DNA of 47,421 nucleotides from Myxococcales bacterium (GTDB lineage Bacteria > Myxococcota_A > UBA9042). Location of the stretch: assembly GCA_009692425.1 (NCBI GenBank), contig SHZF01000035.1, positions 1-47,421 on the forward strand, written 5' to 3'. The notes beneath the pieces are model-generated. The model had not been told where the DNA came from, searched no databases, and worked only from the letters and a program-made list of their open reading frames with translations. Shown one piece after another: positions 20,309 through 45,400 of the stretch. Every line of letters begins with the position of its first letter. The stretch's first letter is position 1. The position numbers and the translations under genes were made by a program.

Positions 20309-22042
20309 CTACGGTTGCTGCCCTGCCGCGGCAGGCCCACTGGCTGCCCCAGCCGGGTCGACCTCCGCCGCCACCGGGTCGGTGGTGGTGACGGGGTCGT
20401 CGGCGTCGTCATTCCACACGAATTGGCGCCGGTGCACGTCCCACCAGCGCGCCCAGGCCCGGTGCTTGCGCAGGGCGGTCGCGTCGAGGGCGTCCGGCCC
20501 ACGCCCGAGAAGGTGGCGCAGCATCGCCTCGGCGTTGGCCGCCAGCCACGGTTGTCGTGCGGTCAACTGGGCCACCAGCCGCGGCACTGCCTGCTCCGGT
20601 CGGTCGAGGGCGTGCAGCCCGCGCAGCGCAAAGCCGCGCACCATCCACTGCCAGCGCCCGCGACCCCCATCGCGTGCCAGCCAGGACCGGGCGGCGTCGG
20701 CATCGGCGAACCCGCGATTGGCCAGGTGTTCCAAGGTCTGCAGCGCCGCGCGTCGGGCCGGCGGGCTCGCGTCGTCGAGCACATCGACGAGCGACTCCGC
20801 ACTTTCTTCGAGCAGCCACGGTCGCACCGCGCGTGCCGCCGCCGTGCGCAATTCCGAACGCGCGTCCGCGTCGAGCGAGGTGCCCAGTTCCCCGACGTCT
20901 GGACCCAACAGGGCGAGCACCTCGGCCGCGTGCTCCGGGCGCGCGACCTGCAGCGCCGTCACCGTCAGATCGCGCACGACCTGCGCTTCGGGCGCCGCAC
21001 GCGCCTGGTCCATCAGCAACGGCCACGCCATCGGAGAGGCCATGAATGCCAGCGCGTCACGCGCACGGGAACGCAGCCCCGGCTCGTCGCGCGCGGCGGT
21101 CCACGCCAGCGCCTCGACGGCGGCCCGGCTCTCTCCCTGAAACCACTTCAGCTTCTCCACCGCGGCGCCACGTCGCTCGACGGAGGGCTCGCCCAACTGC
21201 GCGACTGTACGCTGGACCTCGGCCCGCACCTCATGGTCCCACCCCTGCACCCACGGCCAGCGCGGGTCATCGTCGCTGCATCCGGCGAGGCGATCGGCGC
21301 GGCTGCAGTAGATGCGAAGGTGCAGGTGGTCATCGTGGCGGCCGGCGTGACCGGGTTCGTGCAGGACCATGCGGGCGCGCTGGACGATCCACTCCGGTTC
21401 ACCGATGGCGCGGGCCCGCGACAGCAACTGCTGCCGCAACGGCTCCGCCAGGTACATGTGTTGCACCTGCACGTGCGAGTCGGTGAGCAGGGCGCGCACG
21501 AGGTCCCAACTGCGCGCGACATCGAACACGACCGGCGTTCGCTTCCAGCGACCGCGGCCCGACGAGTCTACGGATACGAATTCATCGGGAGATAGTGGCT
21601 TTCCATTCAGATCCGTCAGGTACAACAAGATGTCTGCATCGCGGCCGGATCGATGAGAATGGCTCCACCTCATCTCGCCGCCCTCCTGCAGCGAGAGATT
21701 GCCGATGCGCACCGCCGTGCCCGCGTGGTCTGGGTTGCGTTGCAGTCCCGCCGACAACCGCACAAGCAGTTCGACCAGATCGCGCGTGGCCCACCCGGTG
21801 CCCCGCTGCGACACGACAGACAACCGCCACAGCCCCGGAGCGCGCCGTGGCAGGTCGACGCCGCTGACCAAGGCGCCGTGCTCCGAATCGCCCAGAGACA
21901 GGGAGGGGCGGTCGGTCGCGTCGAATGCGGGGCCCGCAACAACCTGGGCCACCACCGGGCGCCCGCAGAATAGCCAGCCCAGCACACACGCCCACGGCGC
22001 GACGAACCTGACGACGGTGTGACGCGTGAAGGGCCGGGCCAT
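20309..22042 (-). CDS. Penicillin-insensitive murein endopeptidase (MepA / peptidase M74)-like periplasmic protein with a long alpha-helical repeat C-terminal extension
   Basis: Signal peptide (MARPFTRHTVVRFVAPWACVLGWLFCG). RIGNLSLQEGGEMRWSHSHRSGRDADILLY matches the MepA HxSHxxGxDxD metal-binding motif. ~300 aa of C-terminal Leu/Ala/Arg-rich helical repeats. Start trimmed to ATG 22042. Confidence 0.5.
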   Translation of the reverse strand: MARPFTRHTVVRFVAPWACVLGWLFCGRPVVAQVVAGPAFDATDRPSLSLGDSEHGALVSGVDLPRRAPGLWRLSVVSQRGTGWATRDLVELLVRLSAGLQRNPDHAGTAVRIGNLSLQEGGEMRWSHSHRSGRDADILLYLTDLNGKPLSPDEFVSVDSSGRGRWKRTPVVFDVARSWDLVRALLTDSHVQVQHMYLAEPLRQQLLSRARAIGEPEWIVQRARMVLHEPGHAGRHDDHLHLRIYCSRADRLAGCSDDDPRWPWVQGWDHEVRAEVQRTVAQLGEPSVERRGAAVEKLKWFQGESRAAVEALAWTAARDEPGLRSRARDALAFMASPMAWPLLMDQARAAPEAQVVRDLTVTALQVARPEHAAEVLALLGPDVGELGTSLDADARSELRTAAARAVRPWLLEESAESLVDVLDDASPPARRAALQTLEHLANRGFADADAARSWLARDGGRGRWQWMVRGFALRGLHALDRPEQAVPRLVAQLTARQPWLAANAEAMLRHLLGRGPDALDATALRKHRAWARWWDVHRRQFVWNDDADDPVTTTDPVAAEVDPAGAASGPAAAGQQP

Positions 22043-22125
22043 GAGCGTGCGTAGCCTCCCGCGTGTCGTGCCACCGGGCAGCGCCAACCTTGCCCGCCCG
22101 CGCCCTTGAACGCAACGGGAACCCC

Positions 22126-22270
22126 CGATCTGCTGCCTTCGGCGCATTTCGTCGTTGCCGTCGTCGGTTGGCGGCTCGGCGTACCCGGTGTACGGCTTCA
22201 CCGTCGACCTCCTAGGCGCCTAGAACTGCATCCCAATTCGGCGTTCGGGAAAGGTTTGCTGATGGACCCT
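22126..22270 (+). repeat. Copy B of the ~140-bp intergenic repeat family
   Basis: gatctgctgccttcggcgcatttcgtcgttgccgtcgtcgg...tacccggtgtacggcttca...agaactgcatcccaattcggcgttcgggaaaggtttgctgatggaccctggg. Its end overlaps the first ATG of the downstream hypothetical ORF. Confidence 0.7.
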
Positions 22271-23188: not shown

Positions 23189-24769
23189 TCAGCCCCGGGT
23201 GTTCTTTGGCGGCGACGGCCTGGCGGGCGGCGTCGGCTCGTCGTTCCGCTTAGGCCCGCCGTCGTCGGCCCGGATGCGGCCCAATGCTTCGGGCAGGTCG
23301 ATGCCGCCGATGTCCTTGACCATGTGCATGACGGGCGGCAGCGCACCGGCGAGGCTGCGTAGGAATTCCGAGGTCGAGCCCTTGCCGTCGCCGCGACCGC
23401 CCTCCCACACCACGATCTTGTCGAACTTGATGTTCTGAATGGCGCTCGATGCTGTATCTGCCAGATGATCCACGTGTTCGAGCATCATCAACTGGAAAGC
23501 CTTGTCGGCTCCACCTGCGGCTTCGACGAGCGACCTGAGCGCCTCCGCCTTGCGCTGGAGGATCTCCGCCTCGCCGCGTGCCTGCGCACTCAGCCGCGCA
23601 TAGGTAGCGCCCGCCTGGGCCTCGGCATCGATGCGCACCCGTTCGGCGGCCGCCTCGGCATCGACGACCGTCTTCGCTTTCTCCGCCTTGGCTGTCGCTT
23701 CGACGTCGGCCCGCTGCTCGGCCTCGCGCTTCTTCATGAACTCGAGGGCCGCCAGCGTCTCCGCGGCGTACTGAGCCTGCAAGACGGCGGCTTCGGCCTC
23801 GCGCCTTTTCGTTTCCGCCCGCTGGCGCGCCTCCGCTTCCTTCACCTGCAGGTCGGCATTCGTGGCGACGACGCGCGCCCGCGCCTGGTTCTCGCCTTCG
23901 ACCGCATGGGCATCGGCATTGGCGACGCGTACACGCTTTTCGCGTTCGGCTTCCTTGACTGACGACTCGCGCTCGTTGGCGGCCTTCTGTTCGCCGACCA
24001 CCCGGTCGCGCTCCAGGTTGGCGACTTCGATGGCCTGCTCCTGTTGGGCCTTCGTCACGCCGATCTGGCGGTCGCGCTCGGCCATCGACACGCTCACGGC
24101 GCGCTCGCGCTCGGCCTCGGCGACACCGATCGCGCCGCGCTTCTGCTGCTCGGCCACGTCGATGACGGCCTGCTGCACGGCTTCGGACGCCGCCTTGCGC
24201 CCGATGGCCTCAATGTAGCCGGATTCATCCGTGATATCCGTAATGTTCACGTTGATCAGCACGAGGCCGATCTTGCGCAACTCCGGCTCGAGGCCCTCCT
24301 TGATGCTCTCGCGAAAGGTGTCGCGGTCCTTGTTGATGTTCTCGATCTTGAGCCCGGCGATGACCTGGCGCAGTTGGCCGAAGATGATGTCGCGGGCTTG
24401 CTCGACAATCTGCTGGCGGTTGAGCCCCAAAAGACGCACGGCGGCGGCGTTCATCAGTTCGGGCTCGACCCCGATGGCGACCGTGAAGTTCGACGGCACG
24501 TTGACGCGGATGTTCTCGGCCGACAGCGCGCCGGACAGCGGAATCTCGATCTGCACCGGCTCCAGCGACAGATACGCGTAGTTCTGGATGAGCGGCCAGA
24601 TGAAGGCGCCGCCGCCGTGCAGACACTTCGACGACTGGCCGCCGCCGACCTTGCCGTACACGACGAGAATCTGGTTCGACGGGCAGCGCCGGTAGCGCGT
24701 CGTCACCAGCAGCAGGAACGAAAAACCGAGCAGAGTCGCGAAGATGACGAGCAAGACGATGGCATTCAT
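23189..24769 (-). CDS. Flotillin-like SPFH/band-7 protein (YqiK/FloA-type), 526 aa
   Basis: N-terminal TM segment (MNAIVLLVIFATLLGFSFLLLV), SPFH core, then the long Glu/Ala/Arg/Lys-rich coiled-coil region (...AEREKRVRVANADAHAVEGENQARARVVATNADLQVKEAEARQRAETKRREAEAAVLQAQ...) typical of flotillins. Confidence 0.85.
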   Translation of the reverse strand: MNAIVLLVIFATLLGFSFLLLVTTRYRRCPSNQILVVYGKVGGGQSSKCLHGGGAFIWPLIQNYAYLSLEPVQIEIPLSGALSAENIRVNVPSNFTVAIGVEPELMNAAAVRLLGLNRQQIVEQARDIIFGQLRQVIAGLKIENINKDRDTFRESIKEGLEPELRKIGLVLINVNITDITDESGYIEAIGRKAASEAVQQAVIDVAEQQKRGAIGVAEAERERAVSVSMAERDRQIGVTKAQQEQAIEVANLERDRVVGEQKAANERESSVKEAEREKRVRVANADAHAVEGENQARARVVATNADLQVKEAEARQRAETKRREAEAAVLQAQYAAETLAALEFMKKREAEQRADVEATAKAEKAKTVVDAEAAAERVRIDAEAQAGATYARLSAQARGEAEILQRKAEALRSLVEAAGGADKAFQLMMLEHVDHLADTASSAIQNIKFDKIVVWEGGRGDGKGSTSEFLRSLAGALPPVMHMVKDIGGIDLPEALGRIRADDGGPKRNDEPTPPARPSPPKNTRG

Positions 24770-24802: not shown

Positions 24803-25366
24803 TCAAGGATTGCGTTCGACTTCAAAAGTCTGTGCATCAATACGTTTTCTGACGTGCACACGCGCCCCAGTCGGTATCTCGGGACCGGATGTCATGGCGA
24901 GCAGTTCCGCCTCGCGTCCCTCGATGCTGACCGTGATCTTGCCGGTGCCCGCCATCGCCCCGGGCACGCGCAGGTAGACCGTCGCCGGCAGGCCGACCGC
25001 GCGGCCCACGTCGAGGGTACCGGAGACCTGGAGCCTGGCAATGCCGCGCATCATCACGACGACGGCGGCCATCGCGGCCACCCCGCACAGGGTCGCCAAC
25101 ACGGCGCGCAGGGCGTCCGACGCGATGTTGGCCTCTTCCGCCGCCAGTCCGCCCAACCCGAAGAACGCGCAGAACGCCGTCAAGGACTTCAGCGACAGGA
25201 TCGACGCAAAGGCCGTGGACGAGTCTCCCGCGTGGTCGCCGACGTGGAGTTCGGCCCCGCCGTCGTGGGGCAGGTCGGCGTGGCCGGAGCCGATCAACTG
25301 GAGCACGATCTGCACGACCAGCAGGGTGCAGCCGAGCGCGGCGGTGACGAGGAAGACGAGGTGCAT
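24803..25366 (-). CDS. NfeD-like membrane protein (YqiJ-type partner of flotillin)
   Basis: Multi-pass hydrophobic N-terminal region plus a soluble C-terminal beta-rich (OB-like) tail. Positioned immediately upstream of the flotillin gene (33-nt gap), the canonical nfeD-flotillin operon arrangement. Confidence 0.55.
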   Translation of the reverse strand: MHLVFLVTAALGCTLLVVQIVLQLIGSGHADLPHDGGAELHVGDHAGDSSTAFASILSLKSLTAFCAFFGLGGLAAEEANIASDALRAVLATLCGVAAMAAVVVMMRGIARLQVSGTLDVGRAVGLPATVYLRVPGAMAGTGKITVSIEGREAELLAMTSGPEIPTGARVHVRKRIDAQTFEVERNP

Positions 25367-25633
25367 CGCGCGGGAGGATAGGCGCAGGGGCTGGCGCTTG
25401 ACAACCTAGGGTCTGCTCCGCGGCAGGCCGCTCGCAAAAACGCCAACCTCCAGGGCCATCGCCAGTGTGCGCATCGCTGACAAACTGATCCGGTCATCGC
25501 TCTGAAACTGACCCACCCGTGCCCACTGCCGGGCGTTGCGGCAGCACGCCGCCGGCTCCAGCGGCCCGCTCTTGGCAGTCGTTGGCGTCGTGCGGGTGGT
25601 AGTGCAGCGTCGAACCGCAGCACGCCCGACACC

Positions 25634-28600
25634 CTACGGATTCATCGGGTTCCCATACTCCATCACCGCCGTCATCTCGCCGACCGCCTTGATCAACTGC
25701 AGATAACTCTTCAATGCCGGCGCCGCGCCTGGGTCCACCTTGCCGCCCTTGCCGCAGTCGTCCGCCGTCGTCGTCGTCTGGCCCGGCAGGTCCACCGTCG
25801 CGCCCGGGTCGCACTGCGCCGAACGCGAGCGCAACAGGTTGGCTTGGGCGACCATCGCTTCCCCGCTGCCCACCCGCCCGGCAATGTCGAGCGCGCCATA
25901 GCGCAGCCCCGTCCACGGGTCAGTGAACGTGACCAGCTTGTCTGGCGCTACGGCAGGTGCCTTGCCGCTGCCGATCACGAACACCTGCGCCTCGTCGACG
26001 TACTGGCGGTCAAACGTGGTTTGGAAGCGCGCCAGCCCCAACAGCGTGAAGTACAACTGAATCGTGAAGTCCGCCGCCGGGTTCACTGCGTTTGCGTGCA
26101 CCTCGGTCAAGGGCCCAGCGTAGTTCGGGAACGCCAACTGCTTCGTCTTCGGATCGAGGTACGGCCCCACCCGGCTCCAGTCGCCGGCCGCGATCGCCGC
26201 ACCGATGCGCCGGATGCTGTCGCTGAACGTCGAGTAGTACCCCACTTGCCAGTCGCGCACGTCGATCGGGTTGGCGCGCGCCACGTAGTGCGTCTCGGCG
26301 TCGCTCATCGCCTCCATCGCCATCACCTTGTCGACGTAGAAGCCGATGCGCTGCAGGCACTCCCAGAAAAAGAACCCGCATTCGATGGCGCCACCCGCAC
26401 CGGCCCCGCTCCAGTTCGTCGAGTAGTAGCGCGCATTCGCCACGGTCAGCTTGAAGTCCCCGAACCCGAATGGGCTCTCCTGGTACAGCTTGCTGCCGTC
26501 GGGCCGGTCCGTCTGCGTGTACAGGCCCGAGAAACCGATGTCGGGCATCAGCAGCGTCTGCACCAGGTAGTTGAACGCATTCTGGATCGCCCACGTCTTG
26601 CCACCCCAGCCGCCAGTCGTGTCGAGCAGGAAGTCGTGCAGGTCGGCGGCATCAAAAAACCGCGGCAGCAGTTGGTTGTACAGGCCATAGATGTCGTTCC
26701 ACTGCTTGATGCGGTGGTACAGCCGTGAATACCAGCGGCTTGCATACTGCTGGTTCGACGCGCCGATCTGACCGCGCGGAAAGGCGCGCGTGACGTACCA
26801 GGTGTCCCACTCCTGCAGAAAGTGCTCCATCCGCTCCTGGCTGTCGGCCCCGTAGTCGCGCGTCAGGCAGTGGTCCGACAGGTCCGAGCGGCCATGCGAA
26901 CAGTAGATGTAGGGCACCCGCGTCGCCCGCTTGCAGTCCTTGGCGCTGGGGTTCTCCTTGCACGCGTCGGAGAGGAAAGCCGTCATCTGGTCGAGCTTGC
27001 CGGTCTTGGGATTGACGAGTTTGCTCGCGTCGATCAGTTCGCGGTTGCCGGCGTCGTAGAGCTTCTCCTTCATCTTGGTCCACAGCGCCGTGTAGTGGGT
27101 AGCCGTCGGGCCCGTGATCAGCAGGTCGAGGATTTCGCCGTTTGTGTTGAACCACTTGCGCCATACGCCCGCGTCGCTGCCCGCGTCCTTCCACACCTCG
27201 ACCTTGTCGGCGTAGCCCCACAGCATGGCCGCGCGGTCGTACTTGCCCACGCCGGCGCCGTCGATGGTGTAGCGGCCGGCGTAGTCCATCACGCTCGAGT
27301 ACGCGTAGTTGTAGATTTTCTGGTCCAATTCGCGCGGCGTGATCGGGTCCGTGAGGCGCGGCCCGACCTTGCCACCGTCGCCGTTCTCGGGCGCCGCGCG
27401 AATCTTCCAGTAGTCGTCGAAGTAGTTCACTGCGTCGTCTGAGCCGCCGAAGTTGTGCATCAGCCCGAGCGAGTGACCGACCTCGTGGGCGAGAACCGCG
27501 CTGTAGATGGCATCGCGGATGGTTTTGTAGACGTCTTTGGTGTCCTTGCCCGCCAGTTCCTTGGCCACGCCGGCCAGCGCATCGTCAGCCATCTCGGGCA
27601 AGAACTTGCAGTCGTCGCCGCTGGCCAACTGCTCGCGCATCCGCTGGCGATCCTTGAGGTTCGCCTTCCACGCCGGCTGGGCTGGTGAGCCCGCGGCGAT
27701 GGCTTTCTTGTCCACGGGCGCGTCGGGCCGCAGCCCCGCCATCAGCTTGTGTTCGGGCGACAGCAGCAGCTTCTCGAGCGCCGTGCCCGCAATCTTCGCC
27801 AGCCGGGCATCGCCGCGCACGGCCGGCGCCCGCCCGATGCCGGCCTGCCACATCTCCTCCCAGTGCGGCTGCAGCCACTGGTCGAGCCCGACTTCGGCGA
27901 TGGCAGCCTGATCCTGTGGCGTCATCTTGTGCTGGCGACCCTGCCAGGCCTGAGCGGCGTCTGAATTCGCAATCGCTTCAACCATGTGCGTCGCGCCATC
28001 GAGCCCCAGCTTCTGAAAGCGCCCCTGCCCTGTCGCGACTTGCTGGCGCCAGTCGGTCAGGTCGACGCCGTCGATGAAATCGGTCGATTTTCTCGTACCA
28101 TTGAGCAGTTCGACCAACTCTTGCGTACGAAACGCCGCCGTGTTGTTGTGGTGGTAGACATACGCCATGCCCGACAGAATTTCGCCCGTGTCCGGGTCCT
28201 TGTTGCTGGGCCCGAGTCCCAACAGGCCATACGTCATGTACTGCGGCACGTACGCCATGAAACTGTAGCGGATATCGCCGATGCGCGGTGCGTTGCCCTC
28301 CGTGCCGCACGGCTTGGGGTCGCCCTTCTTCACGGGGTTGTTCTCGCACAGCACGAACATGTCGCCCGCGAATGGATTGCCGGTCGCCGCCACCACCTCC
28401 TTGAACACCTTGTTCCACTGCCCCGCCACCGCCTTGGCCACCGGCTTGAGGTCCTGGGGAAAGTCGCCGTTGACGTGGTACACGATCGGCCGCGGGGTCC
28501 GTTTGGCTTCCGGGATCGCCTTGCCGTCCTTGTCCTTCCAGTCGAGCCACAGGTTGTGGCGCGCCATCCAGCGCTCCTTGTACTGCTGCTTGACGCCGTC

Positions 28601-29428
28601 CTGCTTGTCGTAGGCGAGGCGATCGGCCCAGAAGAAGCCGAACAGCTCCGTCTCCGCGCCCTTGTACGGGCGGCCGACGTACTGGCGCTTGGCGTCGAGC
28701 TTCCAGAAGCTGTGGCGGATGGCGTACTCGCCGGGGCCGCACTCGGTCAGTTCGTCCAACAAGCACAGTGCGACCTCGCCGTAGCCTTCCAGCTGCGTGG
28801 TGCCCGAGCGCGCGTGGATGCGGCTGGTGATGTCGAAGTAGCTGCCGTCGGGCTCGAACTTCGGCGCGTCGGGGTGGCGGCGGCCGTGGGCGTCGAACTC
28901 TTGGACGTAGTACGGCACCGATTCGATCGACTGCTTCTCGAAGTCGAGGTCATTGTTGTGCACCAGATTGTTGGACCAATCGATGCGGACGTGGGTGCGC
29001 TTGTACCACGGGCGGTCGAAGGAATTCTCTTCGAGCACATTGAGTTCCTCACCCGTCGTTGGATTGTAGGAGCGGCGGATGTCGAAGTGCGACTGGATGC
29101 GGAAGGCGCCCACCACCTCGCCCTGGTACGCGCCGTTCGCCCCGCCCTTGGTGTCGGCCGCCTTGATGAGTTCCGTGGCGCGCCGCACGTAGAGCATCGA
29201 CTCCTGCAGGTCGAAGACGACCTTGTCGACGGTCGACGAATTGCCGACGAAGGTGAAGCCGGTGGACGCCGGCATGTCCGTAACGGTGCGGCCGTAGTAC
29301 CAGGTGCCGTTGAAGCGCGACTTTTCGATGGCGTTGGGCTGCACCCGCTGGATCGGCTCGCGCTCCTCGGCGCACGCGGCCAGCGCCACACCCAGCAACA
29401 CGGACACGAAACGGGGCGTGGGCATCAT
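25634..29428 (-). CDS. Very large (1264 aa) secreted lipoprotein zinc metalloprotease (zincin, HEXXH) of unrecognised/rare family
   Basis: Lipoprotein signal MMPTPRFVSVLLGVALAAC. Single catalytic motif VLAHEVGHSLGLMHNFGGSDD (HExxHxxGxxHNF). No other domain recognised by eye. Resembles the Zn-dependent metalloprotease families annotated as DUF4953/DUF5117-type, but this is unverified. Confidence 0.6.
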   Translation of the reverse strand: MMPTPRFVSVLLGVALAACAEEREPIQRVQPNAIEKSRFNGTWYYGRTVTDMPASTGFTFVGNSSTVDKVVFDLQESMLYVRRATELIKAADTKGGANGAYQGEVVGAFRIQSHFDIRRSYNPTTGEELNVLEENSFDRPWYKRTHVRIDWSNNLVHNNDLDFEKQSIESVPYYVQEFDAHGRRHPDAPKFEPDGSYFDITSRIHARSGTTQLEGYGEVALCLLDELTECGPGEYAIRHSFWKLDAKRQYVGRPYKGAETELFGFFWADRLAYDKQDGVKQQYKERWMARHNLWLDWKDKDGKAIPEAKRTPRPIVYHVNGDFPQDLKPVAKAVAGQWNKVFKEVVAATGNPFAGDMFVLCENNPVKKGDPKPCGTEGNAPRIGDIRYSFMAYVPQYMTYGLLGLGPSNKDPDTGEILSGMAYVYHHNNTAAFRTQELVELLNGTRKSTDFIDGVDLTDWRQQVATGQGRFQKLGLDGATHMVEAIANSDAAQAWQGRQHKMTPQDQAAIAEVGLDQWLQPHWEEMWQAGIGRAPAVRGDARLAKIAGTALEKLLLSPEHKLMAGLRPDAPVDKKAIAAGSPAQPAWKANLKDRQRMREQLASGDDCKFLPEMADDALAGVAKELAGKDTKDVYKTIRDAIYSAVLAHEVGHSLGLMHNFGGSDDAVNYFDDYWKIRAAPENGDGGKVGPRLTDPITPRELDQKIYNYAYSSVMDYAGRYTIDGAGVGKYDRAAMLWGYADKVEVWKDAGSDAGVWRKWFNTNGEILDLLITGPTATHYTALWTKMKEKLYDAGNRELIDASKLVNPKTGKLDQMTAFLSDACKENPSAKDCKRATRVPYIYCSHGRSDLSDHCLTRDYGADSQERMEHFLQEWDTWYVTRAFPRGQIGASNQQYASRWYSRLYHRIKQWNDIYGLYNQLLPRFFDAADLHDFLLDTTGGWGGKTWAIQNAFNYLVQTLLMPDIGFSGLYTQTDRPDGSKLYQESPFGFGDFKLTVANARYYSTNWSGAGAGGAIECGFFFWECLQRIGFYVDKVMAMEAMSDAETHYVARANPIDVRDWQVGYYSTFSDSIRRIGAAIAAGDWSRVGPYLDPKTKQLAFPNYAGPLTEVHANAVNPAADFTIQLYFTLLGLARFQTTFDRQYVDEAQVFVIGSGKAPAVAPDKLVTFTDPWTGLRYGALDIAGRVGSGEAMVAQANLLRSRSAQCDPGATVDLPGQTTTTADDCGKGGKVDPGAAPALKSYLQLIKAVGEMTAVMEYGNPMNP

Positions 29429-29450
29429 GGCGATTCCTGTTGCGTGGCGA

Positions 29451-30443
29451 TCAGCGCCACAGTTTGTCTGGGCGCACGCTCATTTCGAGGTAGAGCGCCG
29501 TGTAGCGATTGAAGAAGGGAGCCTGCGGAGTCGAATCGGGGCGCAGCGCGTTCGAGGCGGTCTCGGCACCGAGGCTGACGGTCAGCGCCGGCGCGGCCGT
29601 CCACGCAAGCGCTACGGTGTACAGGGCCGTCACGCGGAGGTTCGGGTCGGAAGGGTCGGGCGGCACCACGTCGCCCGCGTCCGTGTGTGCGGTGGCGAGC
29701 GGCGGCAGCACGTCGTGGACCGCGCCGGCGGACGCGGACAGTGCGAGCGAATCAACCGGTGCCCACCCCAGGCTCAGGGCGTTCTGGAAGCGCCACACTG
29801 GGTTGCGCACGCCCGTGTGGCTGTAGCGGCCGCAGCCTGGGAGGTCGACGGCGCATGCGCTCACCCACGGAGTCGCGGTGCTGGCGGTGGTGTAGCGGTA
29901 CAAGGGGGCCACCGCCCGCGCCGCGACGCCGACCTCGAACGGGCCATGTTCCCACGCCACCTGCAGCCCCAGCGACGGCGCGAACCGCAGCGTGCGGGCG
30001 ATCGAGGCCTTGCTGGTCGGCAGGGCGAATTGGCCATCGAGCCGCACATCGACCCCCAGCGCCTCGCTGTGCCACGGCCGGCCGCCGAACGCGATGGTGG
30101 TGTCGGTCAGCGTCCATTCGCCGCGCGCGGTGGTCCAGTCGGCGTCGGTGATCTCGCGGGCCACGCCGCCACCGGCACGCCCGAACCAGTGCGGGCCCAG
30201 CGCATAGTGCAAGGTGGCGGCGACGGCGCCCACCCAGGTCGGATTCCAGGTCGGTTCGGCGTCCTTGGCAAAGGTGACGGCCGACGCGGAATGGCGCAGG
30301 GCGACGGAAGTGCCGGCGAACGGGCCGGCCGGGACTTCGGCGTGCGCGGTGGCGGGGCACGCGGCGATGGCTGCCAAGCAGAGGCAGCGGGCGGCGCGGA
30401 GGGTGTGAGCGGCGCGGAGGATGTGGGCGGCGGTGCGCAGCAT
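29451..30443 (-). CDS. Hypothetical secreted protein, probable outer-membrane beta-barrel, 23 nt upstream of the metalloprotease gene
   Basis: Signal peptide MLRTAAHILRAAHTLRAARCLCLAAIAACPATAHA. The remainder is Ala/Thr/Gly/Trp-rich with alternating hydrophobic pattern (TWNPTWVGAVAATLHYALG, LGLQVAWEHGPFEVGVAARAV). Start trimmed to ATG 30443. Confidence 0.4.
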   Translation of the reverse strand: MLRTAAHILRAAHTLRAARCLCLAAIAACPATAHAEVPAGPFAGTSVALRHSASAVTFAKDAEPTWNPTWVGAVAATLHYALGPHWFGRAGGGVAREITDADWTTARGEWTLTDTTIAFGGRPWHSEALGVDVRLDGQFALPTSKASIARTLRFAPSLGLQVAWEHGPFEVGVAARAVAPLYRYTTASTATPWVSACAVDLPGCGRYSHTGVRNPVWRFQNALSLGWAPVDSLALSASAGAVHDVLPPLATAHTDAGDVVPPDPSDPNLRVTALYTVALAWTAAPALTVSLGAETASNALRPDSTPQAPFFNRYTALYLEMSVRPDKLWR

Positions 30444-30821
30444 GGGGCGGCGAGAATAGGCCGCAGGCGGCGGGGTGTACAGCGGGGCGGTGCGCCCCTG
30501 ATCCGGCGACAAGGGCGCATCTGCGCTGACATCAAGGCGAAACCGGCGCTTGCAGTACCACGTGTACAGCGTCGCGCCGATGTCTCAGGGGGAACTGGTC
30601 GACCCATTGTACTACCGCAACGGAATCGTCCACGCCGATGTAATCCGCGCTGGCGTCGAGGTCGCGCACGGCCTGGTCGGTCCAGACCAGTTCCAGCGGT
30701 TGCCTTGGTTCAGCGTGCTTCAGGCTGCTCCCTGCCCAAAGCGGTGGATCCGGGCCGCTTGAGCGCAACCGTGCCGTCGTGCACACTCCGGCCCTGCTTG
30801 CCGGAGGCGCCGATGGCCCGA

Positions 30822-32189
30822 ACCCTTGCGATGATCATGGCCGGCGGCAAGGGCACGCGCTTGACGCCCTTGACCTCCTACCGTGCCAAGCCCGCGGTAC
30901 CGTTCGGGGGCCGCTACCGCATCATCGACTTCGTGCTGTCGAATTTCATCAACTCGGGCTACCACCGCATCAAGGTGCTGACCCAGTACATGTCGTCGTC
31001 GCTGATCACGCACCTGAACCGCAATTGGCACCTCGGCGGCGGGCTCGACCAGTACATCGACCCGGTGCCGGCGCAGATGCGGCGCGGCGAGCACTGGTAC
31101 GTCGGCACGGCGGACAGCGTCTACCAGAACCTGAACCTCATCCAGGACGACCACGCCGAGCACGTAGCCGTCTTCGGCGGCGACCACATCTACAAGATCG
31201 CCGTCGACCAGATGGAGGCCTGCCATGCGGAACTCGACGCCGACCTGACCATCGCGGCCTACCCCGCCACGAAGGAAGAAGCGTCGGCGTTTGGCGTCAT
31301 CGAGGTCGACACGACGGGCCGCATCACCGGCTTCCAGGAAAAGCCGAGCCCCGCTGAGGCGCGCACCATCCCCGGCCGGCCCGACACCTGCCTGGTTTCG
31401 ATGGGCAACTACTTTTTCAAGCGCAAGGTTCTCGAAGAACTGCTGATCCGCGACAGCGAAGACCCGACGTCGACCCACGACTTCGGCAAGGACATCATCC
31501 CCCGGATGGTGCGCGAGGGCTTCAAGGTCTTCATCTACGATTTCAGCACGAACCGCGTGCCCGGCGAGTCGGTCGACGCCGAACCGTACTGGCGCGACGT
31601 GGGCACCATCGATTCCTTCTTCGACGCGAATATGGACCTGCGCGCGGTGCTGCCGGCGTTCAACCTCTACAACCGCAAGTGGCCGATCCGCACGGCGATG
31701 TACAACCTGCCGCCGGCGAAGTTCGTGCTCGCCGGCAAGCAGCGCGAGTACGGCCAGGTCATCGACTCCCTGGTGTGCGAAGGGACCATCGTCTCGGGCG
31801 CGGTGCTGCTCAACGTCGTGGCCGGGACAGATTGTTACTTCCATCGTTTCGCGAGCATCGAGAACAGCGTGATGCTCGGGCAGATTCGCGTGGGCCGCTC
31901 GTGCTGGCTGCGCAATGTGCTGGCCGACCACAACGTCAGCATCGCGGACGGCACGACGATCGGCTACCACCCGGACCAGGACCGCCAGCGCTTCCCGTTC
32001 GTGTCGCCACGCGGCATGATCGTGCTGCCGAAGGGGACGCACGTGCCCGCCGAAGGGCCGATCGAGGTGCCCGAAGACATGGTGTTCATGCTCCAGCAGG
32101 ACCCGGCGGTGTCGGACATCTTGAAGGCGCGGCCGGAGTCATTCGTCAGCGTGCAGCGCCACAGCAACGACGCGGTGCGGGCGGTCTAG
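30822..32189 (+). CDS. glgC: Glucose-1-phosphate adenylyltransferase
   Basis: MARTLAMIMAGGKGTRLTPLTSYRAKPAVPFGGRYRIIDFVLSNFINSGYHRIKVLTQY is the canonical GlgC N-terminus. The upstream part of ORF 29304..32189 is antisense to the beta-barrel gene and rejected. Confidence 0.9.
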   Translation, partial: TLAMIMAGGKGTRLTPLTSYRAKPAVPFGGRYRIIDFVLSNFINSGYHRIKVLTQYMSSSLITHLNRNWHLGGGLDQYIDPVPAQMRRGEHWYVGTADSVYQNLNLIQDDHAEHVAVFGGDHIYKIAVDQMEACHAELDADLTIAAYPATKEEASAFGVIEVDTTGRITGFQEKPSPAEARTIPGRPDTCLVSMGNYFFKRKVLEELLIRDSEDPTSTHDFGKDIIPRMVREGFKVFIYDFSTNRVPGESVDAEPYWRDVGTIDSFFDANMDLRAVLPAFNLYNRKWPIRTAMYNLPPAKFVLAGKQREYGQVIDSLVCEGTIVSGAVLLNVVAGTDCYFHRFASIENSVMLGQIRVGRSCWLRNVLADHNVSIADGTTIGYHPDQDRQRFPFVSPRGMIVLPKGTHVPAEGPIEVPEDMVFMLQQDPAVSDILKARPESFVSVQRHSNDAVRAV

Positions 32190-33736: not shown

Positions 33737-34804
33737 GTGAACCTGCCCTGCCCGTCGTCGTGGTTGCGCTGGGGCGCTGCCGTCGCGTTGGCCTGCATTC
33801 TGGCGGCGTGCCCGACCGAGACGCCGAGTCCGAAATCGTGGGCGATGACATTCGAGGAGTTGCCCGGCGCCCTTTTCTCCGTGTGGGGCACGTCCGCGGC
33901 CGACGTCTGGTTGGTGGGAGAGACATGGAAAAAGGACGCAGCCGGCAAGGTCGACCCGACCGGCGAGCCGACGGTGCTGCACTACGACGGCAAAGGCTGG
34001 CAGCGGCTGCACCCGGGCGGCTCGGGCACCTTGTGGTGGGTGACCGGCCTGGGCGACGACGTGTGGATGGCGGGGTCGAAGGGACTCATCCTGCGCTACC
34101 GGCGCAGCACCGGCGCATTCGAGAAGCCGGCAACGCCGAGTGGGGACCAGTTGTTCGGCATCTTCCCGCTGGCACCTGACGACGTGTGGGCGGTCGGGGG
34201 CGTGGCGGGCTGCAGCGGCGAGAGCGGCGCCTTGCTGTGGCACTGGGACGGCAAGGCGTGGTCGGTCGAGTCGCGGGTCGACGCCGGCGCCCAGGACAAG
34301 GTCGCGTGCTGGTTCAAAGTGTGGGCGCGCAGCAAGACCGACGCGTTCGTGGTCGGCAACAGCGGCCACGCGGTGCGCTGGGACGGCAAGACGTGGAAGG
34401 CGCTCTCCACCGGCGTCGAGCGCACCCTTTTCACGGTCCACGGCAACGCCACGCTGGCGGTCGCGGTCGGCGGCTTCGGCACGGGCGCGCTGGTGGAGTC
34501 GAGCGGCGCGGCGGCGTTTGTGCCGATCCCCAAGAAGCCCGCACTGCCGCAGCTCAACGGCGTGTGGGTGCCGGCCACGGGCGACGCGTTTGCGGCGGGC
34601 ATCGGCGGTGCCATCTGGCGGCGGCAGGCCGGCACGTGGAAGGAGGTCTCCGAGGCGCCACTCGCCGCGCGCGAATACCACAGCGTCTACGTGGACCCGG
34701 ACGGCGGCGTGTGGGCAGTCGGCGGGCAGATTTCGGCACCTCCCTTCGTCGGCGGGCAGTTGGGCCACTATGGACCGACGCTGCCGACGAAGATCGCGGA
34801 GTAG
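33737..34804 (+). CDS. Lipoprotein with beta-propeller-like repeats (Ycf48/BNR-like), function unknown
   Basis: GTG start with strong AGGAGG RBS. Lipobox AAVALACILAACP. Recurring DVW(L/A)VG / VWAVGG / AFVVGNSG / AFAAGIGGAIW blade-like motifs. Confidence 0.5.
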   Translation: MNLPCPSSWLRWGAAVALACILAACPTETPSPKSWAMTFEELPGALFSVWGTSAADVWLVGETWKKDAAGKVDPTGEPTVLHYDGKGWQRLHPGGSGTLWWVTGLGDDVWMAGSKGLILRYRRSTGAFEKPATPSGDQLFGIFPLAPDDVWAVGGVAGCSGESGALLWHWDGKAWSVESRVDAGAQDKVACWFKVWARSKTDAFVVGNSGHAVRWDGKTWKALSTGVERTLFTVHGNATLAVAVGGFGTGALVESSGAAAFVPIPKKPALPQLNGVWVPATGDAFAAGIGGAIWRRQAGTWKEVSEAPLAAREYHSVYVDPDGGVWAVGGQISAPPFVGGQLGHYGPTLPTKIAE

Positions 34805-34807
34805 CCA

Positions 34808-35302
34808 ATGACGACGGAGCGCCGACCGGCGTGTTCACTGCCAGACTGTCGGTCCATTGCCGGGTTTGCCGTACGCGCGCTCGTCGTGACGGGGTCGGTT
34901 GGCGGGCTGGTCGGCGGATGCGACGCAGCGCCAGCCTTGGCGCCCGCCGCCCTGTTCCCCGTGGCCGCGGCGACTGACTGGCAAGAAGTGCGCAGTTGCC
35001 GCTTTTCGGTCGAGCACGACGGCGTCCACATCCGCGTGGTGGCAGACGCCGTCGCGGCCACGCCATACCTCGCGGCACAGTATCCGCTGCCGGTTGGCAG
35101 CCGGGTGGTCAAGGTCGAGTACGACGACGCGAAGTGCTCCCACCGGGTCGGCTTCACCGCCATGCGCAAAAGCTCGGCAGGCCTGTGGGAGTGGCAGCGC
35201 ACGGATGCCAACGCGGGGGTCCAGGCCATGGATCCCGCGCGCTGCGTTGGCTGCCACAAGGCCGCATGCGTGGCGACCGACTTCGTGTGCACGCATCCCT
35301 AG
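34808..35302 (+). CDS. Small secreted heme-c protein, cytochrome P460 / c'-beta family-like (C-terminal CxxCH)
   Basis: 164 aa with an N-terminal signal/lipobox-like segment (LVVTGSVGGLVGGC) and a single CVGCH heme-binding motif 17 residues from the C-terminus. Size and motif placement are as in cytochrome P460. Family assignment is tentative. Confidence 0.35.
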   Translation: MTTERRPACSLPDCRSIAGFAVRALVVTGSVGGLVGGCDAAPALAPAALFPVAAATDWQEVRSCRFSVEHDGVHIRVVADAVAATPYLAAQYPLPVGSRVVKVEYDDAKCSHRVGFTAMRKSSAGLWEWQRTDANAGVQAMDPARCVGCHKAACVATDFVCTHP

Positions 35303-38439: not shown

Positions 38440-39514
38440 CTCATACCAAATCCCTTGAATTCGGCTCGGTGCTCGCTCGCCCGCGACGGCTGCGGATGCG
38501 TTGTTCAGGCTCGAAATCCTCCTGCTATTCTATCGCCTTCGCGCCTTGCCTCGCTCGCCGCGTTTGTCGGGAGCCCTCGATCCGATTCGGCGGGCTTTGG
38601 TATCACCCGGGGAAGCTGCCGAGACGGAGACTGAGCCTGAAACGGGGGGTGAGGCGGCTGGGACGCAAGATGTCTGGCGTATTTTCAGTGCGTTGTGATC
38701 TGGCACGGATGTTGCATGAGGATTCTGTGCCGCGCGGACCGATGCGCGGTGACTGCCAGCGGACGCGCGCTCCGGAGGTGGTCGGGTTGCTGCCAGTCGC
38801 GGGGGTCGAGAGGCTCCCGTGGCGAAGGAAGGGCGGGACCGGCGCAAGCCGGCTGGACCCGCGAAGGTGGTGATCTACCTGTTTCTTACAGGAGATCGGC
38901 GGGGAGGGCCATTTTGACGGGGCAGGAGGGCCCCGTCGGGGCCGGGAAACAGATCCAATCCAAACCCAGCAGCATCGGATTGCGGGATTGTGACGAACAC
39001 GACGATCGCGGCAAACCGTGAAGGCAGAGGAATGGCGCGCGGCACGTGGTGCGATGGCCTCGCGACCCGCTAGCACGGAGCCCCGGATCGAGCCCACTTA
39101 ACCCACCACTCGCCACCGCTCGCCATCGCCCATTTCTCCCACACTCTGCCGCCGCCGCGCGACGCCGGCACCGGGCTGCACCCGATGACGATCGGCGGTC
39201 TGTTCTACTGGGTCCTCGACAACCACACCGGTTTGATCGACGACTGGGACCGCTCCCGCCACCGGCGCTGGGGCCATTGTCGCCGCGCGCCCTGCCCCTA
39301 CGACGACCCGGCCCTGGCCAGGCCCGCCATCGACCGGCCATTCGTCTGCGACCGTCCTTGCTGTGCCGAACACAAGCGCAAGGTGCAGTGGCCGTCCTTG
39401 CTGCGCGCGGGCTGGCGCCGGTCCGGGCTGCCGGCCGCCGGGACTTCGTTGCCCGCACGCGACACGTCGTGTAAGGTTCTCGACCTGCGACGACGCACGC
39501 ACGCGGAACTCTCC
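38440..39514. other. ~1.1-kb apparently non-coding region (no convincing ORF on either strand) upstream of the Cys-rich lipoprotein gene; candidate long 5' leader or ncRNA
   Basis: All six-frame ORFs here are short, Arg/Pro-rich and overlap one another. GC is somewhat lower than the flanks. No known riboswitch signature recognised. Confidence 0.4.
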
Positions 39515-43666: not shown

Positions 43667-44203
43667 TTGAAGAAATCGACCGGCACCAAGAGCGGCGCGT
43701 ACTGGATCGACCCCGACGGTCCGGGCGGCATCAAGGCGTTCGAGGTCTACTGCGACATGGTCACCGACGGCGGCGGCTGGACGCTGGTGGGCCTGAACGA
43801 TGCGTCGAAGAAGCTGGCGTGGCGCATGGACGAGACATTCACTAGCCTGCACACGGTGTTCACCAGCGGCGCGACGAAACAGACCACCGTGCTGCTGGTC
43901 GGCAACTTCAAGTCGCTCGACTGGCGGCCCGGTTGCGGTACCGGCAACGGCCCAGATGGTACGGGGCCCCAGTTCTACGGCTTCAACATCCGGTCGGACG
44001 CTGACGTAACCAATCCGGGTCTTTTCAACGGATTCAAGTCGGGATGGTGCTCGGCGCTGGCAGGCTGGGGCCGCAACAACGGCAACGTCGACTACACCGC
44101 AGGCCGCATGACCTGGACCCCCAGTTTGCACCTCGCATTCAAGGCTGGGGCAATGCGTATCTACGTTCCAAAAAACGTTGTCAGACTTTTCAGCACGCGC
44201 TAA
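43667..44203 (+). CDS. Fibrinogen C-terminal-like (FReD/FBG) domain ORF, in frame with and 3 codons after the preceding ORF
   Basis: ADILKKSTGTKSGAYWIDPDGPGGIKAFEVYCDMVTDGGGWTLVGLND matches the FBG N-terminal consensus (C)xx(I/L)...G...SG.Y.I.P.......V.CDM.TDGGGWT(V/L). Its own 'start' is TTG with no RBS. The TGA at 43655-43657 occupies the position of the first conserved Cys. Confidence 0.55.
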   Translation: MKKSTGTKSGAYWIDPDGPGGIKAFEVYCDMVTDGGGWTLVGLNDASKKLAWRMDETFTSLHTVFTSGATKQTTVLLVGNFKSLDWRPGCGTGNGPDGTGPQFYGFNIRSDADVTNPGLFNGFKSGWCSALAGWGRNNGNVDYTAGRMTWTPSLHLAFKAGAMRIYVPKNVVRLFSTR

Positions 44204-44308
44204 ACTCGCGAGGCCCTGCCGACCTTCGGCATTGGGTCCTCAACGCGGAAAGGGAATCTCCACAACAGCTGAGCAAATTCGCTGCTGCAGCCGTACCGAA
44301 GTCAGCCC

Positions 44309-45400
44309 ATGTCGACCGAACATTTAACCATTTTGGTCGTCGATGACTCGCCGGACAACATCGCCATCTTGGCGGATGCGCTGGCGGATCGCTACCGCGT
44401 GCGCGCAGCGACTTCTGGCCAACACGCGTTGCGCATCTGCCGCAGCGACAATCCGCCCGCGTTGGTCTTGCTTGACATCATGATGGACGAAATGGACGGC
44501 TTTGAAGTCTGCCGTCACCTCAAAGCCGACGCGCAAACTTCAGACATTCCTGTCATTTTTGTGTCAGCTCTGTCTGACCCCGTCGACGAGGAGCGCGGCT
44601 TTGCCCTCGGCGCCGCCGACTTTATCAGCACGCCCGTCAGTGTGCCCAAGGTCCGCCATCGGGTTCAGGTTCACCTCGATTTGCGCCAGTCGCGGCGCAA
44701 GCTGTTTGAGTTGAACTCAAAGTATTTAAATTATTTGTCCCCGCAGTTGTCTAAAGCACTGCAGACGGGCATTATGAACGCGACCGTGCAAAATCGCCGC
44801 AGGCTCCTAACGGTGTTTTTTTCCGACATTGTCGGCTTTACGAGCCGTGTCGAAAAACTGGCGCCGGAAGCGTTGACCGACCTGCTCAACGGATATTTCA
44901 GCGCGATGGCCGAAATCGTGGCCAAGCACGGCGGAACGCTAGACAAGTACATTGGCGATGCCATCATGGTATTCTTCGGCGACCCCGACAGCAGAGGCGC
45001 GAGCGCCGATGCCCGCGCGTGCATCGCGATGGCCGTGGAGATGCAAGACGTCATCGAACTCATGTCCGCGGCGTGGCATGGCCACGGCATTGCTGAACCG
45101 TTCCAAGTGCGCATGGGCATTGTGACCGGTGATTGCACCGTTGGCAGCTTTGGCAGCCCGCACAAGTTGGAATATACGGCCGTTGGCAGTTCGGTGAACT
45201 TGGCGGCGCGGCTACAGGCCAACGCGTTGCCGGGCCGCATCCTGGTGTCCGCCAGCACCCATGCGGTAGTCCATGACGTGCCGCTTGGAACGGTTCAGTT
45301 CATCGCGGTCAAAGGCTTTGCTGAGCCCGTGCAAGCCTATGAAGTGTTGCGCACCGCTGGTGTCCGCCAAATTTCCAAGCCAGATTCTGGCGTCCGCTAA
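44309..45400 (+). CDS. Response-regulator receiver domain fused to a class-III adenylate/guanylate cyclase catalytic domain
   Basis: REC: [18 protein letters not shown]...[24 protein letters not shown]...IPVIFVSA (phospho-acceptor Asp in LLDIMMD). CHD: [18 protein letters not shown]...[20 protein letters not shown]...[16 protein letters not shown]...[14 protein letters not shown]. Confidence 0.85.

What the first reader, a model, noticed from the sequence alone, without database searches (positions are those of the whole stretch)
24803..30443. Co-oriented cluster: signal-peptide beta-barrel-like protein, 1264-aa HEXXH lipoprotein metalloprotease, NfeD-like protein and flotillin
A 1264-aa lipoprotein carries a single HEVGHSLGLMHNF zincin motif in the middle of an otherwise unrecognisable sequence. 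Immediately upstream (23-nt gap, same strand) is a gene for a signal-peptide protein with beta-barrel-like composition. 268 bp downstream on the same strand are the NfeD-like and flotillin genes. A giant surface-anchored protease co-oriented with a putative outer-membrane partner and a membrane-microdomain scaffold could be a dedicated secretion/anchoring or envelope-remodelling module. The protease family is not one of the textbook bacterial metalloprotease families.
Basis: partly seen in the sequence, partly recalled or inferred. Interest (0 to 1): 0.55.

Follow-up and report, generated by a model that had tools for sequence, protein, structure and literature searches.

The report
Outer-membrane barrel plus giant lipoprotein protease
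A large lipid-anchored zinc protease of an unstudied family is encoded just after a small 12-stranded outer-membrane barrel protein, and this pairing is kept across many myxobacteria-like and Bdellovibrio-like genomes, whereas the neighbouring NfeD-like and flotillin genes are unrelated bystanders.

Summary
All four genes exist on the minus strand almost exactly where stated. The 1264-aa protein is a lipoprotein (lipobox LAAC19) with one HEVGHSLGLMHNF motif and a Met-turn (SVMDY), so it is a metzincin. Only about 150-180 residues resemble known protease folds. The other ~1000 residues match nothing solved. Pfam sees only a 23-residue DUF4953 match.

The barrel gene lies directly upstream on the same strand in 39 of 49 related loci with enough flank. 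Gaps are short or overlapping. The pairing persists with proteases only 23-28% identical, including Bdellovibrionia. No other neighbour is conserved.

NfeD/flotillin lie within 10 kb in 1 of 44 loci, so the four-gene module is not supported.

My best reading is a two-gene outer-membrane protease module. I infer that the barrel docks, exports or anchors the protease. A peptide-uptake porin role is the main rival. Neither was tested.

Two cultured Bradymonadia lack the adjacency. I rate this a new variant of a known kind, of moderate interest.

The parts
30444..30812 (.). Divergent intergenic region between the barrel gene (minus strand) and a glgC-like gene (plus strand, 30813-32189). It is the presumed promoter region of the barrel-protease operon.
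   Evidence: Read from the sequence. The glgC-like identity comes from Pfam NTP_transferase plus Hexapep_GlmU matches. No promoter was mapped.
29451..30443 (-). Gene for a 330-aa outer-membrane protein whose mature 295 residues are modelled as a 12-stranded beta-barrel. It belongs to a family with no Pfam or NCBIfam model.
30339..30443 (-). Sec (type I) signal peptide of the barrel protein: MLRTAAHILRAAHTLRAARCLCLAAIAACPATAHA, with inferred cleavage before EVPAG.
   Evidence: Homologues have classic AxA-type signal peptides and no conserved lipobox Cys. No signal-peptide predictor was run.
29429..29450 (-). 22-nt spacer containing an AGGA ribosome-binding site 7 nt before the protease ATG. A 6-bp inverted repeat (GTGGCG-CTGAT-CGCCAC, 29444-29460) spans the barrel stop codon.
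   Evidence: In related loci the same junction is short or overlapping, with gaps of -4 or -1 nt in several.
25634..29428 (-). Gene for a 1264-aa lipoprotein metzincin. Family members are full length at about 1220-1330 aa.
   Evidence: Translation. More than 120 full-length homologues at 44-63% identity. About 190 columns are invariant across 28 sequences. Model of residues 21-1220: pLDDT 82.6, pTM 0.83.
29372..29383 (-). Lipobox L-A-A-C (residues 16-19). Cys19 is the lipidated residue and +2 is Ala.
   Evidence: Cys19 is invariant in the family alignment. A lipobox Cys is retained even in relatives at 23-32% identity.
27449..27487 (-). Zinc-binding motif HEVGHSLGLMHNF (residues 648-660), of the form HEXXHXXGXXH.
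   Evidence: It is the only HEXXH in the protein. H648, E649, G651, H652, G655, H658, N659 and F660 are invariant. DUF4953 match at E 5.7e-8.
27281..27295 (-). Met-turn SVMDY (residues 712-716).
   Evidence: M714, D715 and Y716 are invariant. The family profile aligns this stretch with the YSSIMHY Met-turn of astacin-family hatching enzymes.
24803..25366 (-). NfeD-like membrane protein (187 aa). It is a neighbour and not part of the module.
   Evidence: Architecture only. No HMM or PDB sequence hit. Found near the protease only in L006.
23189..24769 (-). Flotillin-type SPFH protein (526 aa). It is a neighbour and not part of the module.
   Evidence: Band_7 at E 3.7e-28. The FloT equivalog scores 144 bits against a cut-off of 700. 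Found near the protease only in L006.

Best explanation
The functional unit is a two-gene operon. The first gene encodes a Sec-exported 12-stranded outer-membrane beta-barrel. The second encodes a ~135-kDa N-terminally lipid-anchored metzincin zinc protease.

Shown here:
- Both proteins are extracytoplasmic.
- The protease keeps every catalytic metzincin residue.
- The two genes stay adjacent and co-oriented across Myxococcota, uncultured Bradymonadales and Bdellovibrionota. They are often translationally coupled.
- No other gene is kept with them.

Inferred:
- The two proteins form a physical pair in the outer membrane.
- The barrel is the protease's dedicated membrane partner. It docks the protease, and possibly helps it reach or stay on the outer face, through its unusually conserved long loops.
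- The protease acts on a specific, conserved envelope or surface substrate rather than digesting protein in bulk. I infer this because it is constrained over its whole 1250-residue length.

The NfeD-like/flotillin pair downstream is an independent operon that happens to lie next to the module in this lineage.
For: Adjacency:
- The barrel homologue lies directly upstream on the same strand in 39 of 49 loci with at least 1.1 kb of upstream flank.
- It is also upstream in L068, L069, L070 and L072, which were found starting from the barrel or from complete genomes.
- The median gap is about 26 nt, and stop and start overlap in several loci.
- It is the only neighbour cluster found in more than 9 loci.

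Depth of the pairing:
- Proteases at 28% identity (L069, L070) have a divergent barrel upstream.
- Bdellovibrionia-type relatives at 23-36% identity have upstream ORFs of 285-307 aa. These match the barrel profile by hhalign with probability 90% and E 1.5e-6.

Barrel:
- Several homologues end in a terminal aromatic residue.
- Conservation is concentrated in the long loops L1-L4 and L6, not in the strands or short turns. This is unusual for a plain porin.

Protease:
- Lipobox Cys, HEXXHXXGXXH and the Met-turn are all invariant.
- Five closely spaced invariant or near-invariant Cys pairs fit an oxidising extracytoplasmic location.
- +2 is Ala, not the Lys linked to inner-membrane retention in M. 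xanthus (PMC3222651).

Precedents for a barrel that holds a surface protein:
- PorP/SprF with type B CTD cargo (PMC9143113).
- The Glt outer-membrane barrels with lipoprotein CglB in Myxococcus (PMC9946355).
Against: - No interaction was tested.
- Adjacency is absent in 10 of 49 loci and in the two cultured Bradymonadia looked up, Bradymonas sediminis and Persicimonas caeni. Other genes lie upstream there, and a GATase gene recurs upstream in a Bradymonadia-like set of loci. I could not check whether those genomes carry an unlinked barrel.
- The side of the outer membrane on which the protease sits is unknown.
- The protease has almost no linker after the lipidated Cys. This argues against threading through a barrel lumen in the manner of RcsF.
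- The barrel's loops are the least confident parts of the model.
- The barrel topology (N-terminus periplasmic, long loops outside) is assumed from the general rule for outer-membrane proteins, not shown.
Confidence: 0.5

Rival explanations
1. Nutrient-acquisition pair. The lipoprotein protease cleaves external (for example prey) proteins at the cell surface, and the 12-stranded barrel is a peptide-specific uptake channel. The logic would be that of small substrate-specific porins encoded beside degradative enzymes. There is no stable complex.
For: The top structural matches include the substrate-specific 12-stranded porins KdgM, a Vibrio oligogalacturonate porin, NanC and Tsx. Going by the record titles, the family occurs in lineages known for predation or protein degradation: Myxococcota, Bradymonadales and Bdellovibrionota. 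Conserved polar loop residues could line a specific pore.
Confidence: 0.22
2. Barrel, protease, NfeD-like protein and flotillin act together as a secretion, anchoring or envelope-remodelling unit organised by a membrane microdomain.
For: All four genes are co-oriented in this window, and the nfeD-flotillin pair follows the protease after 267 nt. The same four genes occur on one contig in L006.
Against: NfeD/flotillin are found within 10 kb downstream in 1 of 44 related loci, and there they are 5.4 kb from the protease. A promoter-like site lies just before the nfeD ATG, although one such site is what chance predicts for the region. From general knowledge, flotillin and NfeD are inner-membrane proteins, whereas the other two are predicted at the outer membrane.
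Confidence: 0.03
3. The barrel is a target or regulator of the protease rather than a carrier. For example, the protease processes the barrel's conserved loops, or the barrel masks or inhibits the protease until a signal arrives.
For: Conserved, poorly modelled loops on the barrel, including a conserved Cys pair in loop 4. Tight genetic coupling. The precedent of regulated exposure of CglB by outer-membrane barrels in Myxococcus (PMC9946355).
Against: There is no direct evidence. No recognisable inhibitor-like or pro-domain element was identified. This reading explains co-conservation no better than the docking model.
Confidence: 0.1

Closest known systems
DUF4953 / EcxA-like met-zincins (Pfam PF16313; EcxA A subunit of an E. 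coli AB5 toxin, PDB 4l6t)
   Different: Only 23 of the 316 model positions align in this protein. It is about five times larger than EcxA and is a lipoprotein, not a toxin subunit. No DUF5117 or DUF5118 domains were detected. The TIGR03952 lipoprotein metzincin equivalog scores 19.7 bits against a cut-off of 208.
PorP/SprF-like outer-membrane barrels paired with type B CTD cargo (Bacteroidota T9SS)
   Same: A ~300-aa outer-membrane barrel binds its own large surface protein and is proposed to anchor it there (PMC9143113). From general knowledge, such barrel genes lie next to the genes for their cargo.
   Different: Different phylum. No PorP/SprF HMM match. The cargo here is a lipoprotein with no T9SS C-terminal domain. 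No T9SS context is seen in the window.
Slam / type 11 secretion (DUF560 barrel plus surface lipoprotein cargo)
   Same: An outer-membrane barrel encoded beside a lipoprotein that it delivers to the cell surface (bioRxiv 10.1101/2024.09.26.615229).
   Different: T11SS outer-membrane proteins have a median length of about 480 aa and carry DUF560, and their cargo carries a C-terminal 8-stranded barrel. Here the barrel is 295 aa and 12-stranded with no DUF560 hit. The modelled part of the protease (to residue 1220) ends in mixed helices and short strands.
Small 12-stranded outer-membrane barrels: KdgM/NanC porins, FapF, autotransporter and intimin beta-domains
   Different: Sequence identity is 7-14%. 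No family HMM matches. The long loops are highly conserved. The barrel is encoded as a separate protein upstream of a lipoprotein rather than fused to a passenger.
Glt outer-membrane platform and lipoprotein CglB in Myxococcus xanthus
   Same: In the same phylum, integral outer-membrane barrels control the surface accessibility and retention of an outer-membrane lipoprotein (PMC9946355).
   Different: The proteins are unrelated. The Glt system is multi-component and serves motility, and the CglB cargo is an adhesin rather than a protease. The Glt barrels are not needed for CglB secretion.
Giant lipoprotein zinc metalloproteases of Proteobacteria (SslE/YghJ, StcE); cited from general knowledge, not tested here
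   Same: Very large, lipidated, single-HEXXH enzymes that act at or beyond the cell surface.
   Different: They belong to different protease families. M66 scores below its cut-off here. From general knowledge, they are exported by type II secretion, not paired with a small barrel.

Membership tests
Metzincin clan of zinc endopeptidases | Extended zinc-binding motif HEXXHXXGXXH/D | tested here: met
   HEVGHSLGLMH at residues 648-658. H648, E649, H652, G655 and H658 are invariant in 28 and in 75 family sequences.
Metzincin clan of zinc endopeptidases | Conserved Met-turn downstream of the third zinc ligand | tested here: met
   SVMDY at 712-716, with M714, D715 and Y716 invariant. The profile aligns it to the astacin-family SIMHY turn, but the alignment is weak (E 0.1).
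Metzincin clan of zinc endopeptidases | Catalytic-domain fold | tested here: met
Pfam DUF4953 (PF16313, Met-zincin) | Score above the gathering threshold, with a match over the domain model | tested here: inconclusive
   The score is 32.8 bits against a cut-off of 24.2, but only profile positions 13-35 of 316 align. All 28 family members hit. Distant relatives align over positions 6-159.
NCBIfam TIGR03952 (metzin_BF0631 lipoprotein metalloproteinase) | Equivalog score cut-off | tested here: not met
   19.7 bits against a cut-off of 208.1.
Astacin (M12A) | Pfam gathering score, and Glu after the third His (HEXXHXXGFXHE) | tested here: not met
   17.2 bits against 22.5. The residue after H658 is an invariant Asn.
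Matrixin/serralysin (M10), M66 (StcE), reprolysin (M12B) | Pfam gathering scores | tested here: not met
   15.4 against 24, 14.5 against 20.6 and 13.7-15.1 against 22-27. All matches are confined to the HEXXH helix.
Bacterial lipoprotein | Signal peptide ending in a lipobox with an invariant Cys | tested here: met
   VALAAC19. C19 is invariant. A lipobox Cys is present in relatives down to 23% identity. Lipidation itself was not tested.
Integral outer-membrane beta-barrel protein | Sec signal peptide, an even number of antiparallel amphipathic strands closing a barrel, and short turns alternating with long loops | tested here: met
KdgM/NanC porin family; autotransporter beta-domain; OMPLA | Match to the family HMM | tested here: not met
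   No Pfam or NCBIfam family at E up to 10. There is fold resemblance only.
Slam / T11SS | DUF560 barrel of about 480 aa, and cargo with a C-terminal 8-stranded barrel | tested here: not met
   No DUF560 hit, and the mature barrel is 295 aa with 12 strands. The modelled part of the protease (to residue 1220) does not end in a barrel, and the last 44 residues were not modelled.
PorP/SprF (T9SS) | Family HMM match and T9SS type B CTD cargo | tested here: not met
   No HMM hit. No CTD domain hit on the protease.
SPFH/flotillin (downstream gene) | Band_7 domain; FloT equivalog score | tested here: met
   Band_7 at 99.2 bits against a cut-off of 23.6. The FloT equivalog cut-off is not reached, at 144 against 700, so the protein is flotillin-type and not shown to be FloT itself.
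NfeD (downstream gene) | NfeD C-terminal OB-fold domain HMM | tested here: not met
   No Pfam, NCBIfam or PDB sequence hit. Only the architecture and the adjacency to the SPFH gene fit.

The most novel reading that the evidence does not exclude
The pair could be a previously unrecognised minimal system for displaying a lipoprotein on the cell surface in Myxococcota and Bdellovibrionota. In it, a bare 12-stranded barrel, with no POTRA, TPR or DUF560 parts, would translocate and/or hold a 135-kDa lipidated metzincin on the outer face. This would in effect be a lipoprotein-specific secretion or anchoring device, encoded separately from its cargo, in phyla where surface lipoprotein export is unexplained.
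Probability: 0.2. Interest if true: 0.75.

Novelty: new variant of a known kind. Interest (0 to 1): 0.5.

Why it matters
How outer-membrane lipoproteins reach and stay on the cell surface outside the well-studied Proteobacteria and Bacteroidota is poorly understood.

A two-gene cassette of one barrel and one very large lipoprotein enzyme, conserved across two phyla, is a compact and genetically tractable system for that question.

The protease also defines a large, strongly conserved metzincin family. About 1000 of its residues have no structural precedent and its substrate is unknown.

The barrel defines a sizeable outer-membrane protein family (1668 cluster representatives) that has no Pfam or NCBIfam model.

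If the pair turns out to be only a protease plus a peptide porin, it is still a useful annotation rule for many genomes assembled from metagenomes.

Tried and rejected
- Four-gene module with flotillin: rejected on co-conservation, 1 of 44 loci.
- Terminator between the protease and nfeD: the 267-nt spacer folds no better than shuffled sequence (z = +1.3) and has no T-tract hairpin on the minus strand. This is uninformative for a 70% GC genome.
- Promoter before nfeD: one site with 9 of 12 matches, against 0.9 expected by chance in the region. This is suggestive at most.
- Sequence search of the protease against PDB: nothing with the single sequence. With the family profile, only weak astacin and MMP hits at the zinc site.
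- Foldseek of the whole protease model against PDB: only noise, all with E above 0.1. The afdb50 library was unavailable.
- Literature: no paper in the library mentions DUF4953, DUF5117, DUF5118 or PF16313.
- A lipobox-like IAAC in the barrel's signal peptide: rejected as a lipoprotein signal, because homologues have ordinary AxA signal peptides and no conserved Cys.
- Conserved C-terminal tail YGNPxxP-COOH of the protease as a universal docking signal: rejected, because it is absent from the distant barrel-linked relatives.
- Rfam and tRNA scans of the window: nothing found.
- Loci lacking the barrel: their upstream ORFs were checked and are not barrel homologues even at E 10. L016, L053 and L055 have a GATase gene upstream.


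Full report
**Observation**

The window is about 70% GC. It is identical to a contig from a genome assembled from a metagenome (MAG), labelled 'Myxococcales bacterium' at NCBI (locus tags EXR79_10990 and EXR79_10995).

- a 330-aa protein at 29451-30443
- a 1264-aa protein at 25634-29428
- a 187-aa membrane protein at 24803-25366
- a 526-aa SPFH protein at 23189-24769

The gaps between them are 22, 267 and 33 nt. Upstream of the first gene lies a divergent glgC-glgA pair, so a transcription unit must start in 30444-30812. The rest of the window holds housekeeping genes such as aconitase, PutA, NadE and Ppx.

**The protease**

It begins with a lipoprotein signal (VALAAC19). It contains exactly one HEXXH, which is HEVGHSLGLMHNF at 648-660.

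More than 120 full-length homologues of 1222-1331 aa share 44-63% identity. In a 28-sequence alignment about 190 columns are invariant. These include C19, H648, E649, H652, G655, H658, N659 and M714-D715-Y716.

A family profile aligns the stretch from the zinc motif to YSSVMDY with the HEXXHXXGXXH...SIMHY region of astacin-type hatching enzymes, although only at E 0.1. So the protein is a metzincin with a Tyr-bearing Met-turn.

It belongs to no named family:
- Pfam gives only a 23-residue DUF4953 match (32.8 bits against a cut-off of 24.2).
- Astacin, M10, M66 and reprolysin all fall below their cut-offs.
- The NCBIfam lipoprotein-metzincin equivalog scores 19.7 bits against 208.

Closely spaced invariant or near-invariant Cys pairs (222/230, 361/374, 843/854, 1017/1024, 1206/1225) fit an extracytoplasmic protein. 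Position +2 is Ala, not the Lys associated with inner-membrane retention in M. xanthus (PMC3222651). Applying that rule here is an extrapolation across lineages.

Bdellovibrionia-type relatives match DUF4953 over half of its model (positions 6-159 of 316). The family is therefore best seen as a remote, much enlarged branch of the DUF4953/EcxA-like met-zincins.

**The upstream protein**

It has a Sec signal peptide ending AHA|EV, and its homologues have ordinary AxA signals. No Pfam or NCBIfam model matches it, even at E 10.

A profile search of 1.84 billion cluster representatives finds 1668 members at E up to 1e-3 and 426 at E up to 1e-30. This is a large unnamed family.

Conservation is highest in the long loops:
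- TYNP in L1
- RELTxSDxTT in L2
- LPTSKxSQARTL in L3
- HRYTTG...C...C...GVRN in L4
- QLAPDSxYRxPFFNRxT in L6

It is lower in the strands and the short turns. Under the usual outer-membrane protein topology those loops face outward or fold into the lumen. They are also the least confident parts of the model.

**Gene neighbourhood**

A genome-collection scan returned 65 loci encoding relatives of the protease.

- A barrel homologue lies directly upstream on the same strand in 39 of the 49 loci that have at least 1.1 kb of upstream flank (tblastn plus profile search).
- Gaps are short, with a median near 26 nt. Stop and start overlap (-4 or -1 nt) in about eight loci.
- Clustering all flanking ORFs shows the barrel is the only widely conserved neighbour. 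It occurs in 39 loci, against 9 or fewer for any other cluster.
- Starting instead from divergent barrels leads back to the protease. L068 has the protease split by frameshifts, and L069 and L070 carry proteases only 28% identical.
- Three still more remote relatives (Bdellovibrionia, Halobacteriovoraceae and a 'Deltaproteobacteria' MAG; 23-36% identity around the zinc site) each have a 285-307-aa ORF immediately upstream. Together these match the barrel profile with hhalign probability 90% and E 1.5e-6 over 207 columns.
- All relatives keep a lipobox Cys.

There are exceptions. Ten loci lack the adjacency, as do the two cultured Bradymonadia looked up, Bradymonas sediminis and Persicimonas caeni. 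A GATase gene recurs upstream in several of these loci. I could not determine whether those genomes carry an unlinked barrel.

**NfeD and flotillin**

The SPFH protein is clear (Band_7 E 3.7e-28). The 'NfeD-like' label rests only on architecture.

Among 44 related loci with at least 2.5 kb of downstream flank, the pair appears once, in L006, 5.4 kb from the protease. There it is followed by the same M74-HEAT peptidase gene as in this window. This is lineage-specific synteny, not a module.

A TTGTCA-18-TATCCT site sits just before the nfeD ATG. One such site is what chance predicts for the region. The spacer shows no special fold.

**Mechanism**

Shown here:
- There is a conserved, often translationally coupled two-gene unit.
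- It encodes an outer-membrane barrel and a lipidated metzincin that looks catalytically intact.

Inferred:
- The two proteins act as a physical pair at the outer membrane.
- The barrel is a dedicated docking, export or anchoring partner, and its conserved loops are the interface.
- The protease has a specific conserved substrate. I infer this because its whole 1250-residue length is under strong constraint, with no domain shuffling, unlike typical digestive exoenzymes.

Two precedents support this logic. PorP/SprF barrels bind their type B CTD cargo (PMC9143113). The Glt outer-membrane barrels control exposure of lipoprotein CglB in Myxococcus (PMC9946355).

The main rival is a surface protease plus peptide porin arrangement, in the manner of KdgM and NanC. 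The fold cannot separate the two readings, because secreting barrels such as FapF and autotransporter domains score equally well.

Threading of the protease N-terminus through the barrel lumen, as in RcsF, is unlikely. Folded, conserved sequence starts within a few residues of Cys19.

**Comparison and novelty**

The pair is not a Slam/T11SS system. It has no DUF560, the barrel is 12-stranded and 295 aa, and the modelled part of the cargo does not end in a barrel. It is not PorP/SprF, and it is not a member of any named porin or autotransporter family by HMM.

The papers library holds nothing on DUF4953 or its sister DUFs. Databases call the protease 'zinc-dependent metalloprotease' or 'EcxA zinc-binding domain-containing protein', and the barrel 'hypothetical protein'.

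I rate it a new variant of a known kind: an outer-membrane barrel with a dedicated lipoprotein or surface-protein partner, here with a new barrel family and a new, very large metzincin family. Interest is moderate (0.5). The pairing is robust and spans phyla, but its function is untested.

Noticed in passing
window 30375-30443 (minus strand): The database protein for the barrel gene (EXR79_10995, 308 aa) starts at an internal TTG. That start leaves only 'MAAIAACPATAHA' as leader, which is too short for a signal peptide. The ATG at 30443 gives a full 35-aa Sec signal, as in the 81%-identical homologue P0122.
   Followed up: yes
window 29444-29460: A perfect 6-bp inverted repeat (GTGGCG-CTGAT-CGCCAC) spans the barrel gene's stop codon, 8 nt before the protease ribosome-binding site. 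No T-tract follows it on the coding strand. It might modulate coupling between the two genes.
   Followed up: no
window 20312-22201 (minus strand); L006 20316-21797: A 630-aa protein combines a penicillin-insensitive murein endopeptidase domain (Peptidase_M74, MepA-like) with HEAT repeats. It lies directly downstream of the flotillin gene. The same nfeD-flotillin-M74 order recurs in L006.
   Followed up: partly
window 25634-25660 (protease C-terminus): Close family members (at least 44% identity) end in a nearly invariant tail, YGNPxxP-COOH, preceded by a conserved Cys-Cys loop and a helix. The distant barrel-linked relatives lack the tail. Its function is unknown, and it was not included in the structure model.
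   Followed up: partly
L016, L053, L055, L071 (upstream of the protease gene): In a set of loci that includes Persicimonas caeni, a class-I glutamine amidotransferase gene lies upstream of the protease in place of the barrel gene. Bradymonas sediminis (L066) has a divergent glutamate dehydrogenase gene there.
   Followed up: partly
L003, L014, L048 (record titles): Three MAG records titled 'uncultured Enterobacteriaceae bacterium' carry this cassette with proteases 56-57% identical to the window's. The taxonomic labels are almost certainly wrong.
   Followed up: no
L068 8127-12027: The protease gene is called as three pieces (104, 564 and 602 aa) in a long-read assembly. tblastn shows one continuous homologue with a frame change near 10217. 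This is probably an assembly frameshift rather than a pseudogene.
   Followed up: partly
window 39185-41851 (plus strand): An 888-aa protein has a strong IgGFc_binding domain match (E 3e-65) over its C-terminal 360 residues. This is an unusual domain for a bacterial genome.
   Followed up: no
window 44001-46000: GC content drops to 0.58 from about 0.68-0.70. The region includes a gene for a response-regulator receiver fused to an adenylate/guanylate cyclase domain (44309-45400).
   Followed up: no
window 33737-35302 (plus strand): Two ORFs with very high third-position GC (355 aa and 164 aa) lie between glgA and an inositol monophosphatase gene. Neither has a Pfam match.
   Followed up: no
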